A stretch of DNA of 64,000 nucleotides, taken from assembly GCF_024298765.1 (NCBI RefSeq), contig NZ_CP101211.1. The stretch is one strand, 5' to 3'. A program made the position numbers. How positions within the stretch are numbered: position 1 is the first letter of the stretch; each line of letters opens with the position of its first letter. This DNA is from Escherichia coli. GTDB taxonomy: Bacteria; Pseudomonadota; Gammaproteobacteria; Enterobacterales; Enterobacteriaceae. Positions 1-21,000 of this stretch are shown here, piece by piece.

Positions 1-3000
1 CGTTGTTGTTATGTATTCCCTGAATATCGCCTTTGCCCGCGTTATCAAGGTTATACGGAGTAAAGCCAGCTTCACTTTTTCCAGGGACACGCTGAGTCGC
101 GTCCTGAGCGTTGGAGGAAAGACCGAGTTTAGCCTGCGAATCAACACTTCCACCCAGTTCCCCTACGCGTGACGCACTCATCACGCCAGACGTATTTACG
201 CTGTCAGGAGTTCTATCCTGTGCCTGAGTGATAGTATTAATTCCTGACCCTTCGCCTGAAATTCTGTCGAGCTGATTGGTGATAGGTAGCAGCTGCTGTG
301 CATTACCACCGAAGTCGGAAACCAGACTTTTAAGCAGGCTGGAGGTTTCACGGAGATCCTGTTTATTACTTTCGGCCGTCTCTCCCCGGGCGGTATCAAT
401 CGCAATTTTTTGCTCACTGAAATCTCGTGTTGCAGCCACAAGCGCGTCAGTACGTTGAAGCTGCGAACCAAGCTGATTACTGGCCTTGAAGGTATCGTTA
501 TAGGAGTTGAATTTCTCCATAAACGCATTCTCATCCAGCCCATTCTTACGAGCAAAATTCCTTACATCATCATCACTGAAGTTTTTGTTGCGAATAGAAT
601 CGGAGAACCTGTCCAGGTTAATGCTTTGTTTAGAATCAAGGCTCATTCCACTATTGGAGCTGGCGTTAGTCGATACCGATGTAGAAATGTTTTGCGCCAT
701 CGTCTGTGTCGCCTGGTTCATTTTCGACGATGCTTCTTTAAACGCATTAGTATTGGATATCTGATCGCTGCTTACCTGAGACGCCGCTTTACTGAACTGG
801 TCAGTCAAAGCAGAATCCTGGCTAAGCTGATTCGTGATTGCTTTTGAAAGGTCATTTGAAAGCGAGTCACTGCCTGTATTGGTCTTAGATGCGCCGCTAC
901 TCAATTGCCCTGCTACAGCTGCTTTCAGCCCGGCTCCGTTGCCAGTTCCAGCACCTCCATTAAGCCCAGCGTTTAGAATAACATTTGAAGCAATGCTGGC
1001 CATCTGAGACGCACTCACCCCATGTTTCGTTGCAATACCTTCTGCTACAGAGGCACCAATCTTATCCGAGATCTGCTTCATTGTTTGCAGGTTGGTTGAG
1101 AACTGCTGGCTCGACTGTCCTGACCTTCCAATTTCACTCATCTGACTGTAACCAGCCTGGAATGAATTACTTGCCGCACTCATAACTGATGAGGTTACAG
1201 CTGATCCTTGCCCCTGGCTGTTAGCGATACTTGAACCAGCATTCCACATTCCAAGACGGAAATTACTTGAATCAACTGCGCCGCCATCGCTGTATCCCTG
1301 ACCGGTACTGGTCAAGGCGGTTCGTGTCACGTCACCAAATGAAGATTTACCGCTGTTAGGGCCATCCCATACTTTGGGCGTTACATGACCAGTATCCACC
1401 GGCGCATCGGGGGTCACTCCCTTAACCGCATTCATCATCGGGTGAATCGACTGTGTCATCAGGAATAATGTGAGTACCGGAATCAGAGCATAAAGCGCGG
1501 AAGCAACAGACAGGTATGAACTGTATGTTTCCGCAAGCCCTGGGAGCCCCATCCACGTGACGGCATTATTCTGGCTGTTGAGGGTGCTCCAGGTATCCAG
1601 ATCGGCCGTCGCGACTTTCTTCACATACGCGTTGACCATTACTGCCGTAAGCGGCCACATATTCACGAAGAGAATAAGTTGCAAATATTTCGCCGCAGCG
1701 GCAACACCATTACCACCTAACGCCAGCAGCATAAGCAAAGCAAATGGAGCAACCATGTAAGCAAACATCTCAAGGAATGCGATTGCTGCTCCAGACAGTT
1801 GTAACCACAACTGGCCCTGTGAAGCCATTGTGTTGGTTCGCTTCAGAGAAGCCTCAAACAACTGCATATCGGAAGCCAGACCGAGTGGGGTCTTATATTT
1901 GCTTGCGCCATTTCTGAGCTCATTCATTATGAACAGGTTCAGGGTGGCGTCATACGAACCAATAGCCTTACCGTACATACCATTTGCTGACGCCATAACA
2001 TCAGTAAAACTTGCGCCGGTAGGTGCACCATTTGCTTCGTCTGGAGTAAGGATGCCGTTTGTCTGTCCTATAAGGGAAATAGTCTGGCGAGCTTCAGCTG
2101 TACTGGTAACCTGTTTCACAGTTGACCAGACCTCATCACACGTACCAGATTTTGAACCGTTAGCGCCAACAATACTGGCAGAGGCATTCTTCAGTGCGCC
2201 TTTCATCGCCTGATTAATCCGGTCCATGCTATCTGCCAGATTAGCTGAGAAAATATCGTTAAAAATAGTTTCTTTACCGGCAATATTTGCGCTTGAGTTT
2301 TGGGTAGCCTTCAGGCAGTTGTATGCAAGAGACTGAACGGTAGCACATACGTTCATTGGCCCTAGCCCGCTGGCCGGTTCAGGAAATGCAGAACAGTAGC
2401 CCTGGCTATCGCCGCCCCATTGCAAAAACTTCACGAATCGGATCATCGGACCGAGGGTGATGTCATCGTCCAGAGTTGTTGCAGACAGGTCCACCGGAGA
2501 AAGCGGATCAAACGCAGTTTTATAATCCTTCAGCAAACCCTGGCTTAAGTTAGTGGTGACGGTGGCCATCGCAGCAATAAAAATTGGAATTCCGTCGACG
2601 TTTCTGACCTCTCCCGACTTTACAGATTCAATAGTTACATCCACTCGAACCATTGCCATCATGAAAAGGATCAACCCCAAAAACCAGGAGAAAAACGGTA
2701 ATTCATTTTTGGTCGGAGCCTGAAGCCATAGCCACGTTTTATAGAATAGGCTCACACCTGCTACAACGGCGGCCGTGGTCAGGAACTCTTTTACACCAGT
2801 ATATTGAGAAAAGATTAGGGCAATACCGGTAAAAGCCGACCAGACAAAATCAATATCACCCAGGGTATATATGTTGTAATCCATGTCAGACCTCAGTTAC
2901 GTGTGCCACGAATACTTTCAGTGAAAGCCTTCCGTTGCAGGCGACGGTTATCCCAGGTTGAAATGACGTCCGAGCTGGTACCGACCTGGCTGTGCGATAG

Positions 3001-18000: not shown

Positions 18001-21000
18001 AAGTCGCCAGGGCTCTATACGGACCTTACTCATATTCACAACATAACGACAAAGTACAAAGCCCCGATGAAATTCGAGCAACGAGTAACATACATTCTGC
18101 TCAACTTTATCCATTATCTGTGGGCAAGTCTGTTCACTAAGCAGAAGCCTTAGCGCTCTATCATTGGTAAGGCTGTAAAATGTCTGCAAAAGGCCCCATC
18201 GGTAAATTGTTGGGGCTTTTTCTTTGCGTAGTTCTGATACGGTTTATCCTGTGGAGCATTATGGCCACCAGCCAGCTGGTGACTGGCCAACGCTTTGTAT
18301 GACGTAGCCTACTCAGGGCAGGCTATTTTAGAGGGACCGATTTTTATCCGGGCTAATTTAGAAAGAGATAATTTGAACTTAGGCGGGCTGACCACCAGCA
18401 GAGAGGTAAATCACTAGCCGGTGATATTGACAGAAGTCGTCAGGGGTTTAACGCCGGAATATTTTGCCAGGCCTCCTGCAAGGTCTGCAAGACTTCTACA
18501 AGTGATAGTGACGGCCACAGGACTGTTTCCGTCATTATCACTCCAGGTGGCTCGCACTCTACTGGTACCAGAATTAAAACAACACGAGTTCCTTTTACCT
18601 GGTAGGCAAGGTTTACTGCCGGTTGGCGGTAGGAGGCCAGTACACCCTCACCATATTGAGCAGGGTTACTTGCCCAGTTCCGCACCATTGCATACACCTG
18701 AGGCATATACCGACTATCCAGATCCCCTTTGGGCCGTCTGAACGGCACGATTTCTTCTGAGCGGTAGGTGGTCGTTGTTGTATTGGTTGTCATCTTTGTC
18801 ACCTCCCCTGTTCGTCCATTTAGAGTTTTAAGCTGCTTTACACATCACACTCAACTGATTATTTAAGCTGGTCATCGTCTCTGGCCAGCATAGCCCAACC
18901 ATTCGACTGGTTTTCGCGGGAGTAAGGATTCATTTCAAAATAACTATCTACCGCGTCGCTGTCCGCAACAGAACTGTTGTTAGCTCTCTTTGAACCCTGA
19001 ACCACTACAGCATCAACCTCTGCGGCTTTCCCGTTGCGCTGTACCAGGATTTTAACCGTCTTGGGCTTACGTCTTGCGAGCAGTTTGTTGGCGATAAAAA
19101 GCACAACAATCCAGGCCAAAAGCACGTATAAAAATTTATTCATAATGCCCTCCTTTGTATGTGATTATTATACCTGCTTCCATTGCAGGCCAAACAGGTT
19201 CGGTGTATGAAAAATAGACTTCTCTCCGGCGTATAGCAATCTACTTACTGATCTGTTTTCGTATCAAACTGTATGGCATAACCGAGGGGCGTACGTGGTG
19301 AGTCAGAAAGTTACTTTTCCGTAATAGTTAATTTCAGATCCTTCTTCCAGTTACGCTTCAGTATAAAACCGATACCCTCTAATTCAGCATCCTTCACGTT
19401 TAATACGCTTCACTTTAAGGCAGGGCTTTTCGGTTGATATGAATTCTTTTTCCGGTTGCTGGACATGGGTTTCATCCTGATAGTTAAAATTGCAGGCTAT
19501 CAGTCACCACCACCACCTCCTCCTCCTCCTCCTCCACCGCCACCATCACAACCACCAGCTATGCTATTTTCACCATTACAATCACCTCCGAGGGGGTTCA
19601 AATGGCTGCTCCCCTGTAGATGGTGTCCTTGCCAGATCGAACCCGAACCAGCGCCTCCTGAGCGTCTTTGCTTGCCCTGAGGCAATTGTGCAGGCTCACC
19701 AGCACCGGCGGTCCCAAAAATGTCCCGGGCAATTTTATAAAGAAGGTAAAAAGGTACGCCCAGCATCATAAAAAAGATTACTGAAAATATTACACGTTCC
19801 ATTGATGATCTCCTGTCTTGTGAGAGACCAGTTATATCAGGGTGATTCAGTATTTCCGTTTAGAAAAGAGTACTAATTTGGCCCTGTTCGATCTTAATTT
19901 GCCATCCGGGAAAAAGTCATAGGGATAGGCCTGCCAGAGTCAATAACTTCCAGTGATCTGGAGGAGACCCCGGCTCTCTGAGCCCTCATGGATGGTACGG
20001 CTTTACCCCCTGTAAACAGATTCACGTTCCGCAGGACAAACATCGACTACTGACGTCTCATATTTGCTGACGCTAATCCGACGTCTCATTGCCGTCTGCT
20101 TGTTTTCTTTAAAGGGTGTATTAGACGAATATCAAATCGGAATGGTAGGGGATGTGTGGGCACCATGCCCGGCCCTCTTTGAGCATCTGAGAGATTGGAG
20201 ACCTAGCCGGGTAAGATAGCTACTTTCTTACGGGTTACCCTTCAAATCCAAAGACGAAACGGACGCTGCCGTTCTCCACGTGGAGACGCTTTACTTCTTC
20301 GACAAATTCCTGGATCACCTCTCCGGCGTTATCGGGTGGTATGGCTGACAAAATTTCTTCCGAAGTCAGCCATGAGTATGAATGTTCACCGAATAAATCA
20401 TCATCTTCGGACGGTATATCATCAGGTAATCCGCGTAATGCGTGGATAAAAACTGCTGATGTGCTCGCCCTTTCACGATCTACATCAAATCCGAGCCAGG
20501 CAAAGTGGAGATATGATCGGTCCCCTTTATAATTGCTTGATAAATTAATCCATTTACCAGGCTTTTCTTCCCTTTGAAATCGCCAGCAGATATCAACGCC
20601 CATTAAGAAACTCCATTACTATCGTTCGTATGAGATAACTATCATTTCAGAATACTATGACTTCTTCCCGTATAGAACTAATCGCTCACGCCAACTGGGC
20701 GAAGCCAACCGGTTCCGCCACTTCGCTCATTGGTTTTTAGGCGTAAGCACTGAAGCCAGTCTCCATGCTAACTGGCGAGCCTGCGAAAGTCAGACTCGTT
20801 GTTATAAAGCGGCATATCGTAAGCGGTGTCTGAAATGAACATGCGGATCTGCTCAAGCGTCATGCCACAATGAAAACGGTTTACGCTCACATTGGCCCGG
20901 GGGAAGTCAGCACAAAACGCATTCAAAACATTTTCATGGACAATGCCAATGTTGATCAACGCAGCTGGCCCGTTGTCACGGAAGGATACGACACGGAATC

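What the first reader, a model, noticed from the sequence alone, without database searches (positions are those of the whole stretch)
1..18153. Gene order resembles an IncHI-type Tra1 region; regulator pair includes an FlhC-like zinc-ribbon protein
Minus strand: 266-aa protein, 170-aa zinc-ribbon protein, TraF-like, TraH-like, TraG-like. Plus strand, divergent: small protein, 245-aa protein, MobH relaxase, 694-aa coupling protein, 370-aa protein, membrane protein. From memory this matches the IncHI1 (R27) Tra1 layout trhR-trhY-(trhX)-trhF-trhH-trhG / oriT / traH-traI-traG-traJ; this is inference. The 170-aa protein has an FlhC-like C-x2-C-x13-C-x2-C ribbon and an N-terminal LGAN..IRILYG stretch, suggesting relation to FlhC-type activators (AcaC/SetC) of IncC/SXT elements.
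Basis: inference. Interest (0 to 1): 0.45.

Follow-up and report, generated by a model that had tools for sequence, protein, structure and literature searches.

The report
IncHI2 plasmid transfer region Tra1
This is the well-known first transfer region (Tra1) of a common IncHI2 resistance plasmid; its known activator TrhY looks like a very distant relative of the flagellar regulator FlhC, a link I did not find in the papers I could search.

Summary
Window 1-18153 is the Tra1 conjugation region of an IncHI2 plasmid. It is 100% identical to hundreds of sequenced plasmids, and all 13 genes are collinear with Tra1 of the IncHI1 prototype R27 at 63-87% amino-acid identity. The 266-aa and 170-aa proteins are TrhR and TrhY. 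In R27 these two activators are both required for tra gene expression.

- No Pfam or NCBIfam FlhC match for any family member, and no PDB sequence match.
- A profile-profile comparison of TrhY with AcaC/FlhC gives E = 4e-4 over 131-134 collinear columns (0 of 200 column shuffles reach it).
- All four zinc-ribbon cysteines align.

Evidence that TrhR is FlhD-like is suggestive only. The gene layout is already known. The FlhC link is a modest annotation gain that puts IncHI with SXT, IncC and IncT elements, which use FlhDC-type master activators.

In passing I found a 13-bp palindrome, AAAAGTNACTTTT. It has 9 perfect copies in the window and 26 in R27, is conserved at orthologous positions and is absent from the 56 kb of IncC examined. 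I also found an alternating repeat array next to mobI, probably oriT-associated.

The parts
1..2884 (-). trhG / TraG_N mating-pair stabilisation gene. Only the 5' part (N-terminal 961 aa of a 1317-aa protein) lies in the window.
   Evidence: Pfam TraG_N, E = 1.4e-29. Annotation. 80% identical to R27 TrhG.
2893..4308 (-). trhH (TraH-family pilus assembly protein)
   Evidence: Pfam TraH, E = 4e-57. RefSeq name 'IncHI-type conjugal transfer protein TrhH'. 87% identical to R27.
4298..5344 (-). trhF (TraF-like thioredoxin-fold protein)
   Evidence: Pfam TraF, E = 3e-51. TIGR02740 TraF-like, 327 bits against a cutoff of 232. 84% identical to R27.
5938..6450 (-). trhY, 170 aa: small subunit of the TrhR/TrhY activator. 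I read it as a divergent FlhC-like protein with a helical N-domain and a C-terminal 4-Cys zinc ribbon.
6452..7252 (-). trhR, 266 aa: large subunit of the TrhR/TrhY activator. Its stop codon lies one base before the trhY start codon, the position flhD/acaD holds relative to flhC/acaC. Residues ~135-210 are possibly FlhD-like.
   Evidence: NCBI name trhR. 77% identical to R27. Weak matches to AcaD. No structural or Pfam support.
7577..7745 (.). Array of six copies of AAAGTGACCCTATG in alternating orientation, between trhR and mobI. Probably the oriT-associated binding array (inferred).
   Evidence: 6 copies against 0.47 expected, found nowhere else in the window. R27 has 7 copies at the orthologous place and nowhere else in its 180 kb.
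   Evidence: Pfam MobI, E = 2.7e-22. RefSeq mobI. 76% identical to R27.
8493..9230 (+). 245-aa conserved protein of unknown function
   Evidence: No significant family match. 73% identical to its R27 neighbour in the same position.
9234..12386 (+). MobH-family relaxase (TraI of IncHI)
   Evidence: NF041494 MobH, 254 bits against a cutoff of 200. 64% identical to R27.
12386..14470 (+). Type IV coupling protein (SXT-type TraD; TraG in R27 nomenclature)
   Evidence: TIGR03743 SXT_TraD, 677 bits against a cutoff of 366. 83% identical to R27.
14470..15579 (+). 369-aa protein (position of TraJ in R27)
Evidence: No family match. 66% identical to R27.
15566..16228 (+).
   Evidence: Pfam DUF4400, E = 1.2e-12. 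82% identical to R27.
16239..17420 (+). S49 (SppA-like) peptidase
   Evidence: TIGR00706, E = 4e-35. Annotation.
17422..18153 (+). NERD nuclease-related protein
   Evidence: Pfam NERD, E = 1e-21.
7328..7340 (.). One copy of the dispersed 13-bp palindrome AAAAGTNACTTTT, 82 nt upstream of the trhR start codon. Other copies inside the finding lie at 4268, 6887, 7813, 11236, 12674 and 14404.
   Evidence: Six of the seven are retained at orthologous R27 positions although the flanks are only 70-80% identical.

Best explanation
Window 1-18153 is the Tra1 region of an IncHI2 conjugative plasmid. Two divergent operon sets flank an oriT-containing intergenic region. On one side lie trhR-trhY and trhF-trhH-trhG, the regulators and the mating-pair formation and stabilisation genes. 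On the other lie mobI, a 245-aa gene, the MobH relaxase, the coupling protein, the TraJ-position gene and downstream genes, which handle DNA processing and coupling.

TrhR and TrhY are the plasmid's positive regulators of tra operons. This was shown in R27 by others. I infer that TrhY is a highly diverged FlhC-family protein with a helical N-domain and a C-terminal Cys4 zinc ribbon. I further infer that it works with TrhR, encoded immediately upstream and tightly coupled, as a heteromeric FlhDC-type activator. The closest analogues are AcaCD of IncC, SetCD of SXT/R391 and Orf247/Orf246 of Rts1.

What is shown and what is inferred:
- Shown here: the identity of the region, and TrhY's sequence-profile and predicted-fold similarity to FlhC/AcaC.
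- From the literature: both proteins are needed together, and HtdA counteracts them.
- Inferred: complex formation, zinc binding, direct DNA binding, and an FlhD-like nature for TrhR.
For: Identity of the region:
- 100% identity over 18,153 bases to plasmids typed IncHI2A, MOBH, MPF_F.
- All 13 proteins are collinear with R27 Tra1 at 63-87% identity.
- Family models hit TraG_N, TraH, TraF, MobI, MobH, SXT_TraD, DUF4400, S49 and NERD.

TrhY resembles FlhC:
- hhalign of the TrhY family against AcaC/FlhC gives E = 4e-4 over 131-134 collinear columns, TrhY 20-161 against AcaC 31-178. Both CxxC pairs align.
- No column shuffle reaches the score: 30.0 against a shuffled mean of 12.6, sd 2.5, 0 of 200.

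Genetic logic:
[quoted passage not shown] AcaC and AcaD show the same two-gene requirement (PMC4207636).
- The larger upstream gene is tightly coupled to the C-like gene, as in flhDC and acaDC.

Precedents:
- Genuine AcaC relatives are themselves barely seen, or not seen, by Pfam FlhC.
- The Rts1 SetD-position protein also has no detectable homology (PMC10838148).

TrhR hints:
- BLASTP against AcaD gives E = 0.006, over the part of AcaD that matches Pfam FlhD.
- TrhR 125-215 matches both FlhD-like repeats of AcaD in one register: E = 0.03 and 0.009, with 0 of 150 shuffles each.
Against: Against the FlhC reading of TrhY:
- No member of the TrhY family matches Pfam FlhC, even at E <= 10.
- A PDB sequence-profile search does not find FlhC. 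BLASTP against E. coli FlhC finds nothing.
- Without the zinc ribbon, the N-domain aligns in the same register but is only marginal: 14 of 200 shuffles reach it. About half of the sequence signal therefore comes from the ribbon.
- The AF2 model has moderate confidence (pLDDT 69, pTM 0.59) and rests on a shallow alignment.

Against an FlhD-like TrhR:
- Full-length hhalign against AcaD is not significant: 23 of 200 shuffles reach it.
- An unrelated control, TrhY 1-91 against the AcaD C-half, scores nearly as high.
- The 125-215 window was chosen after seeing the alignment.

No shared DNA box was found among TrhRY-dependent promoter regions. Nothing here shows a complex or DNA binding.
Confidence: 0.72

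Rival explanations
1. TrhY is an unrelated small zinc-ribbon protein. Its resemblance to FlhC is convergence or an artefact: a generic helical bundle plus a generic Cys4 ribbon, and an AlphaFold model biased towards a fold it has seen. TrhR/TrhY would then activate transcription by a mechanism unrelated to FlhDC.
For: - No Pfam, NCBIfam or PDB sequence match to FlhC.
- The best weak Pfam hits are generic zinc ribbons such as Zn_Tnp_IS91.
- The N-domain alone is not significant: 14 of 200 shuffles reach it.
- The model's pLDDT is only 69.
- TrhR shows no FlhD fold match.
Against: - The profile alignment is collinear over about 80% of both proteins and beats all 200 shuffles, which keep the cysteine columns.
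- The gene order and the two-subunit requirement match FlhDC, AcaCD and SetCD.
- The element belongs to the same MOBH/MPF_F lineage, whose other members use FlhDC-type activators.
Confidence: 0.2
2. The region belongs to an integrative element or to an IncC/SXT-type element rather than an IncHI plasmid.
For: MobI, the MobH relaxase and the SXT-type TraD are families shared with IncC and SXT elements. Ten of 564 matching places in E. coli genomes lie on chromosomes.
Against: - 100% identity to plasmids typed IncHI2A.
- In the matching plasmid, the RepHI2 initiator gene begins about 1 kb past the end of the part that matches the window.
- The IncC TraF, TraH and TraG proteins are only 21-28% identical, and IncC keeps acaDC elsewhere.
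- The only mobile-element genes annotated in the window are IS transposases.
Confidence: 0.01
3. TrhY is FlhC-like but TrhR is not FlhD-like. On this reading IncHI recruited a new, unrelated partner for an FlhC-type subunit, giving a hybrid activator.
For: - TrhR is 266 aa against 116 aa for FlhD.
- It has no Pfam or fold match.
- Full-length profile comparison with AcaD is not significant.
- The SetD-position protein of Rts1 likewise lacks detectable homology.
Against: - Weak but register-consistent matches link TrhR ~135-210 to both FlhD-like repeats of AcaD.
- AcaD itself carries extra sequence around its FlhD domain, so size is no objection.
Confidence: 0.3

Closest known systems
Tra1 region of IncHI1 plasmid R27 (trhR-trhY-trhF-trhH-trhG / oriT / mobI(traH)-traI-traG-traJ)
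   Same: Same 13 genes in the same order and orientation, at 63-87% amino-acid identity. The same alternating AAAGTGACCCTATG array lies between trhR and mobI. The same dispersed palindrome sits at orthologous positions.
   Different: This is the IncHI2 lineage, not IncHI1. The relaxase (64%) and the NERD protein (63%) are the most diverged. Neither RefSeq annotation has a trhX gene between trhY and trhF.
IncHI2 plasmids (R478 type), e.g. pMTY18780-1_IncHI2, NZ_AP023198.1
   Same: 100% nucleotide identity over the whole finding. The rest of the window matches apart from IS content.
   Different: None within the finding. That R478 is the prototype is from memory; I did not check it here.
AcaCD master activator of IncC/IncA plasmids
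   Same: A two-subunit activator essential for tra expression, with the D gene immediately upstream of the C gene. AcaC and TrhY align over about 130 columns, including the HTH-like N-terminal stretch and the Cys4 ribbon. Both elements are MOBH/MPF_F.
   Different: AcaC passes Pfam FlhC (31.8 bits against a cutoff of 27) and AcaD passes Pfam FlhD; TrhY and TrhR do not. acaDC lies downstream of traG next to acr1/acr2, not upstream of traF. TrhR is longer. The antagonist is HtdA, acting on the proteins (PMC7366339), rather than the Acr1/Acr2 repressors. AcaCD boxes are not found here.
E. coli FlhD4C2 (PDB 2AVU)
   Different: 7% identity. The ribbon spacing is x13 against x16. FlhDC regulates flagellar genes. 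TrhR is not demonstrably FlhD-like.
Orf247/Orf246 (SetD/SetC-like) of IncT plasmid Rts1
   Same: The C subunit is recognisable as FlhC-like. The D-position partner has no detectable homology, yet both are required positive regulators (PMC10838148).
   Different: Rts1 SetC still matches the FlhC domain by standard search. That paper lists no R27 counterpart for either protein.

Membership tests
IncHI-type Tra1 conjugation region | Gene order trhR-trhY-trhF-trhH-trhG divergent from mobI-(orf)-relaxase-coupling protein-traJ | tested here: met
   All 13 genes are collinear with R27 at 63-87% amino-acid identity. ORFs and annotation.
IncHI-type Tra1 conjugation region | MOBH relaxase and F-type mating-pair formation genes | tested here: met
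   NF041494 MobH is above its cutoff. TraF, TraH and TraG_N Pfam matches. PLSDB typing is MOBH, MPF_F.
IncHI-type Tra1 conjugation region | Carried on a replicon with an IncHI initiator | tested here: met
   The identical plasmids are typed IncHI2A. In the matching plasmid the repHI2 gene begins about 1 kb past the end of the part that matches the window.
IncHI-type Tra1 conjugation region | Not integrative: no integrase or att sites bounding the region | tested here: met
   The annotation of the whole window lists only IS transposases as mobile-element genes. 554 of 564 matching places in E. coli genomes are on plasmids.
TrhR/TrhY activator pair of IncHI plasmids | Orthology to R27 TrhR and TrhY | tested here: met
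   77% and 85% identity at the syntenic position. NCBI names the cluster trhR.
TrhR/TrhY activator pair of IncHI plasmids | Both proteins required together to activate tra operons; counteracted by HtdA | not testable with these tools
   Reported for R27 (PMC7366339). Not tested for the IncHI2 proteins.
FlhC family (Pfam PF05280) | Match to the family HMM at or above the gathering score | tested here: not met
   No match at E <= 10 for any of 8 TrhY-family members. For comparison, AcaC scores 31.8 bits against a cutoff of 27.
FlhC family (Pfam PF05280) | Profile-level homology to accepted members | tested here: met
   hhalign against AcaC/FlhC: E = 4e-4, 131-134 columns, 0 of 200 shuffles reach it. 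Without the ribbon it is only marginal, 14 of 200.
FlhC family (Pfam PF05280) | FlhC fold | tested here: met
FlhC family (Pfam PF05280) | Four-cysteine zinc site in the C-terminal part | tested here: met
   C132, C135, C149 and C152 are conserved in all seven full-length family members; the eighth, P0027, is truncated. They align with the invariant AcaC/FlhC cysteines. Zinc binding itself was not tested.
FlhDC-type heteromeric activators (FlhDC, SetCD, AcaCD) | Partner subunit with an FlhD domain encoded immediately upstream | tested here: inconclusive
   Position and tight coupling are met. Homology is weak:
- BLASTP, E = 0.006.
- HMM shuffle tests, p = 0.05 and 0.004.
- Domain-restricted hhalign, E = 0.03 and 0.009.
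- Full-length test not significant.
- No Pfam or fold match.
- An unrelated control scores nearly as high.
FlhDC-type heteromeric activators (FlhDC, SetCD, AcaCD) | The two subunits form a complex that binds promoter DNA | not testable with these tools
   No multimer prediction or experiment was available. No shared box was found in the PF, PH and PAC promoter regions.

The most novel reading that the evidence does not exclude
IncHI plasmids use an FlhD4C2-type heteromeric master activator, TrhR/TrhY, so diverged that standard models miss it. All major MOBH/MPF_F elements (SXT/R391, IncC/A, IncT, IncHI) would then share one ancestral activator type.

In addition, the conserved 13-bp palindrome AAAAGTNACTTTT would be the operator of this complex, or of its antagonist circuit, and would define a plasmid-wide regulon. 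It has about 50 sites in R27, is mostly promoter-proximal, and also lies 82-87 nt upstream of trhR. That would explain why most R27 genes respond to the HtdA-TrhR/TrhY circuit.
Probability: 0.18. Interest if true: 0.6.

Novelty: new member of a known kind. Interest (0 to 1): 0.36.

Why it matters
IncHI2 plasmids are major carriers of resistance genes in Enterobacteriaceae; from memory these include mcr-1, which I did not check in this window. Their transfer is switched on by TrhR/TrhY, whose mechanism is not described in the papers I could search.

If TrhY belongs to the FlhC family, three things follow:
- It gives testable predictions: zinc-dependent folding, a hetero-oligomer with TrhR, and class II-type activation.
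- IncHI regulation becomes comparable with the much better studied AcaCD and SetCD systems.
- It raises the question of whether genomic islands could sense TrhRY, as SGI1 senses AcaCD.

The gene layout itself adds nothing new. The dispersed palindrome, if it is a real operator, would give a handle on the plasmid-wide regulation seen in R27 transcriptomes.

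Tried and rejected
Approaches that found nothing or failed:
- Pfam and NCBIfam scans of TrhY and TrhR and of all their family members: no FlhC or FlhD match.
- PDB sequence-profile searches with both families: only chance-level hits.
- BLASTP of TrhY against E. coli FlhC: nothing.
- Exhaustive HMMER search of 1.84 billion representatives with TrhY: only 23 hits, all IncHI-like or fragments, with no bridge to FlhC. The family is therefore narrow and the alignments stay shallow.
- The afdb50 library was unavailable.
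- Full-length hhalign of TrhR against AcaD: not significant.
- tblastn with FlhC against plasmids did not reach AcaC, which shows how insensitive plain searches are here.
- A crude k-mer search for a box shared by the trhF, mobI and trhA upstream regions of R27, IncHI2 and a Klebsiella plasmid: no better than shuffles.
- The 2014 Molecular Microbiology paper that defined TrhR/TrhY is not held. I cannot exclude that it already mentions FlhC.

Readings I rejected:
- My first recollection that acaDC sits just upstream of traF in IncC was wrong. It lies downstream of traG.
- I considered the dispersed palindrome as the TrhRY box and think it unlikely. It is absent from the trhY-trhF intergenic region, which holds the TrhRY-dependent F promoter, in all three plasmid types. 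It is also identical in a plasmid whose TrhR/TrhY are only 28-35% identical.

Full report
**What is there.**
Megablast of window 1-18153 finds 100% identity over the full length to many plasmids of Escherichia, Salmonella, Enterobacter and Klebsiella. In all, 987 plasmid records match at 99% or better, and 928 records cover at least 80% of the query. In complete E. coli genomes, 554 of 564 matching places are on plasmids. One identical record, pMTY18780-1_IncHI2 (NZ_AP023198.1), is typed IncHI2A, MOBH, MPF_F by PLSDB. The rest of the window is also IncHI2 backbone with IS insertions. In the matching plasmid the repHI2 gene begins about 1 kb past the end of the part that matches the window.

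**Gene content.**
RefSeq annotation and family models agree on the genes.
- Minus strand: TraG_N (cut by the window start), TrhH, TraF-like thioredoxin-fold protein, a 170-aa protein and a 266-aa protein.
- Plus strand: MobI, a 245-aa protein, MobH relaxase, SXT-type TraD coupling protein, a 369-aa protein, DUF4400, S49 peptidase and NERD.

I fetched the complete R27 sequence. tblastn shows all 13 proteins in the same order and orientation at 63-87% identity. A distant Klebsiella MOBH plasmid keeps the same order at 23-61% identity. IncC shares only TraF, TraH and TraG, at 21-28%. More precisely, the window is IncHI2.

**The regulator pair.**
The 266-aa protein is named trhR by NCBI. The pair is 77% and 85% identical to R27 TrhR and TrhY. 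In R27 both are needed simultaneously to activate the F, H, AC and Z tra operons. HtdA counteracts them, and H-NS silences trhRY at 37 °C (PMC7366339). The trhR stop codon lies one base before the trhY start codon. flhD-flhC and acaD-acaC show the same tight D-then-C arrangement.

**Is TrhY FlhC-like? Standard tests say no.**
- No Pfam or NCBIfam FlhC match for TrhY or for any of seven relatives, even at E <= 10.
- No FlhC in a PDB sequence-profile search.
- Nothing by BLASTP against E. coli FlhC.
- An exhaustive HMMER search of 1.84 billion proteins finds only a narrow IncHI-type family.

**More sensitive tests say yes.**
I collected AcaC relatives from IncC and from metagenomic contigs. A profile-profile comparison of the TrhY family with AcaC/FlhC then gives E = 4e-4 over 131-134 collinear columns, TrhY 20-161 against AcaC 31-178. 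It aligns SLGANKNTIRILYG with ETGLTYKQVRRLYQ, and it aligns both CxxC pairs. None of 200 column-shuffled controls reaches the score: 30.0 against a mean of 12.6, sd 2.5, maximum 24.4.

**Caveats on the TrhY result.**
- Without the ribbon, the N-domain aligns in the same register but only marginally; 14 of 200 shuffles reach it.
- The model is of moderate confidence.
- Genuine AcaC relatives are themselves weak or invisible to Pfam FlhC, so the HMM failure is not strong counter-evidence.

I put the probability that TrhY is a true FlhC-family homologue at about 0.75.

**Is TrhR FlhD-like? Unresolved.**
In favour:
- BLASTP against AcaD gives E = 0.006, exactly over the AcaD segment that matches Pfam FlhD.
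- An AcaD HMM scores TrhR at p = 0.05 and the Klebsiella homologue at p = 0.004 against shuffles.
- TrhR 125-215 aligns in one register to both halves of AcaD: E = 0.03 and 0.009, with 0 of 150 shuffles each.

Against:
- The full-length profile comparison is not significant; 23 of 200 shuffles reach it.
- The 125-215 window was chosen after seeing the alignment.
- An unrelated control, TrhY 1-91 against the AcaD C-half, scores nearly as high.
- Pfam finds nothing.

There is a precedent in IncT plasmid Rts1. Its SetC-like protein has an FlhC domain, while the required partner just upstream has no detectable homology (PMC10838148).

**Mechanism proposed.**
TrhR and TrhY form a heteromeric FlhDC-type activator that switches on the tra operons. 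The Cys4 ribbon of TrhY would hold a structural zinc, as in FlhC. HtdA would act on the proteins. Only the similarity of TrhY to FlhC is shown here. The two-gene requirement comes from the literature. Complex formation and DNA binding are inferred.

**Novelty.**
The layout and the function of TrhR/TrhY are known. No paper in the searchable library mentions TrhR or TrhY together with FlhC, FlhD, AcaCD or SetCD. The Rts1 comparison table leaves the R27 column blank for SetC and SetD. The 2014 paper that defined TrhR/TrhY is not held, so prior mention cannot be excluded. I rate the finding a new, very divergent member of a known kind.

**Noticed on the way: a dispersed palindrome.**
The 13-bp palindrome AAAAGTNACTTTT occurs 9 times perfectly and 17 times at up to one mismatch in the window. 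In the initial search with the 12-mer AAAAGTAACTTT, dinucleotide shuffles of the window expected 0.61 matches.
- R27 has 26 perfect copies and 50 at up to one mismatch. It is the only recurrent 6-N-6 palindrome in both sequences.
- The 18.5-kb Klebsiella locus has 10 copies. The 56 kb of IncC I examined has none.
- In the matching plasmid pMTY18780-1 (loci L001 and L010, about 69 kb containing the window), 11 of 18 sites are intergenic although only about 22% of the DNA is non-coding. These mostly lie 80-220 nt upstream of start codons.
- Six of the seven sites in Tra1 are retained at orthologous R27 positions although the flanks are only 70-80% identical. This argues for selection on the DNA itself.
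- It is absent from the trhY-trhF intergenic region in all three plasmid types, so it is probably not the TrhRY box.
- No paper in the library contains the sequence in a plasmid context.

**Noticed on the way: a repeat array next to mobI.**
Six alternating copies of AAAGTGACCCTATG lie between trhR and mobI. R27 has seven at the same place and nowhere else. The Klebsiella plasmid has a different but similarly arranged set. Their position next to mobI suggests oriT-associated binding sites.

**Noticed on the way: AcaD is a tandem duplication.**
IncC AcaD is a tandem duplication of the FlhD-like domain. Its N-half aligns to its C-half at E = 1e-11.

Noticed in passing
window 4268, 6887, 7328, 7813, 11236, 12674, 14404, 19306, 24355, 24481, 38635, 43684, 47896, 52065, 53100, 58817, 61041 (13 bp each); also R27 (L011-L014) and L006: A 13-bp palindrome, AAAAGTNACTTTT, is strongly over-represented: 9 perfect and 17 at up to one mismatch in the window; 26 perfect and 50 at up to one mismatch in R27; 10 in an 18.5-kb Klebsiella MOBH plasmid locus; none in 56 kb of IncC. 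It is the only recurrent 6-N-6 palindrome. It lies mostly 80-220 nt upstream of gene starts but also inside genes, and it is conserved at orthologous positions while the flanks diverge. It is absent upstream of trhF. The binder is unknown; candidates are a plasmid global regulator such as HtdA, a KorB-like ParB, TrhRY, or a host factor. It was not found in the searchable literature.
   Followed up: partly
window 7577-7745: Six copies of AAAGTGACCCTATG in alternating orientation, about 22 bp apart, lie between trhR and mobI. The array is unique to this place in the window and in R27, which has 7 copies at 108436-108579. It shares the half-site GTSACTTTT with the dispersed palindrome. It is probably the oriT-associated protein-binding array.
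   Followed up: partly
L005:4425-5033 (AcaD of IncC plasmid pAR060302): AcaD is an internal tandem duplication of the FlhD-like domain. hhalign of residues 1-95 against 96-202 gives E = 1e-11, probability 97%, over 68 columns. Pfam FlhD matches only the second copy.
   Followed up: partly
window 4268-4280; R27 111898, 9208, 35265, 140892; L006 11482 and 11499: Several palindrome copies sit 15-35 nt inside the 5' end of a gene (trhH, trhU, htdO, a thermonuclease gene). At the trhF/trhH junction this holds in IncHI2, IncHI1 and the distant Klebsiella plasmid.
   Followed up: no
Only ORFs of 25-61 aa are present, and neither the IncHI2 nor the R27 RefSeq annotation calls a gene here.
   Followed up: partly
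window about 18500-64000: The backbone downstream of Tra1 consists of long runs of small hypothetical genes on one strand. It also holds a Hok-type toxin, a RelE/ParE toxin, two DNA methyltransferases, a 794-aa PAPS-reductase-family protein, HNH endonucleases and several Ig-like domain proteins, interrupted by IS150, IS1 and ISKpn18 copies.
   Followed up: no
L007:1328-1951: A metagenomic AcaC-position protein (207 aa, next to a 45%-identical AcaD homologue) has no Pfam FlhC hit on record. Standard models therefore already miss part of the mobile-element FlhC-like clade.
   Followed up: no
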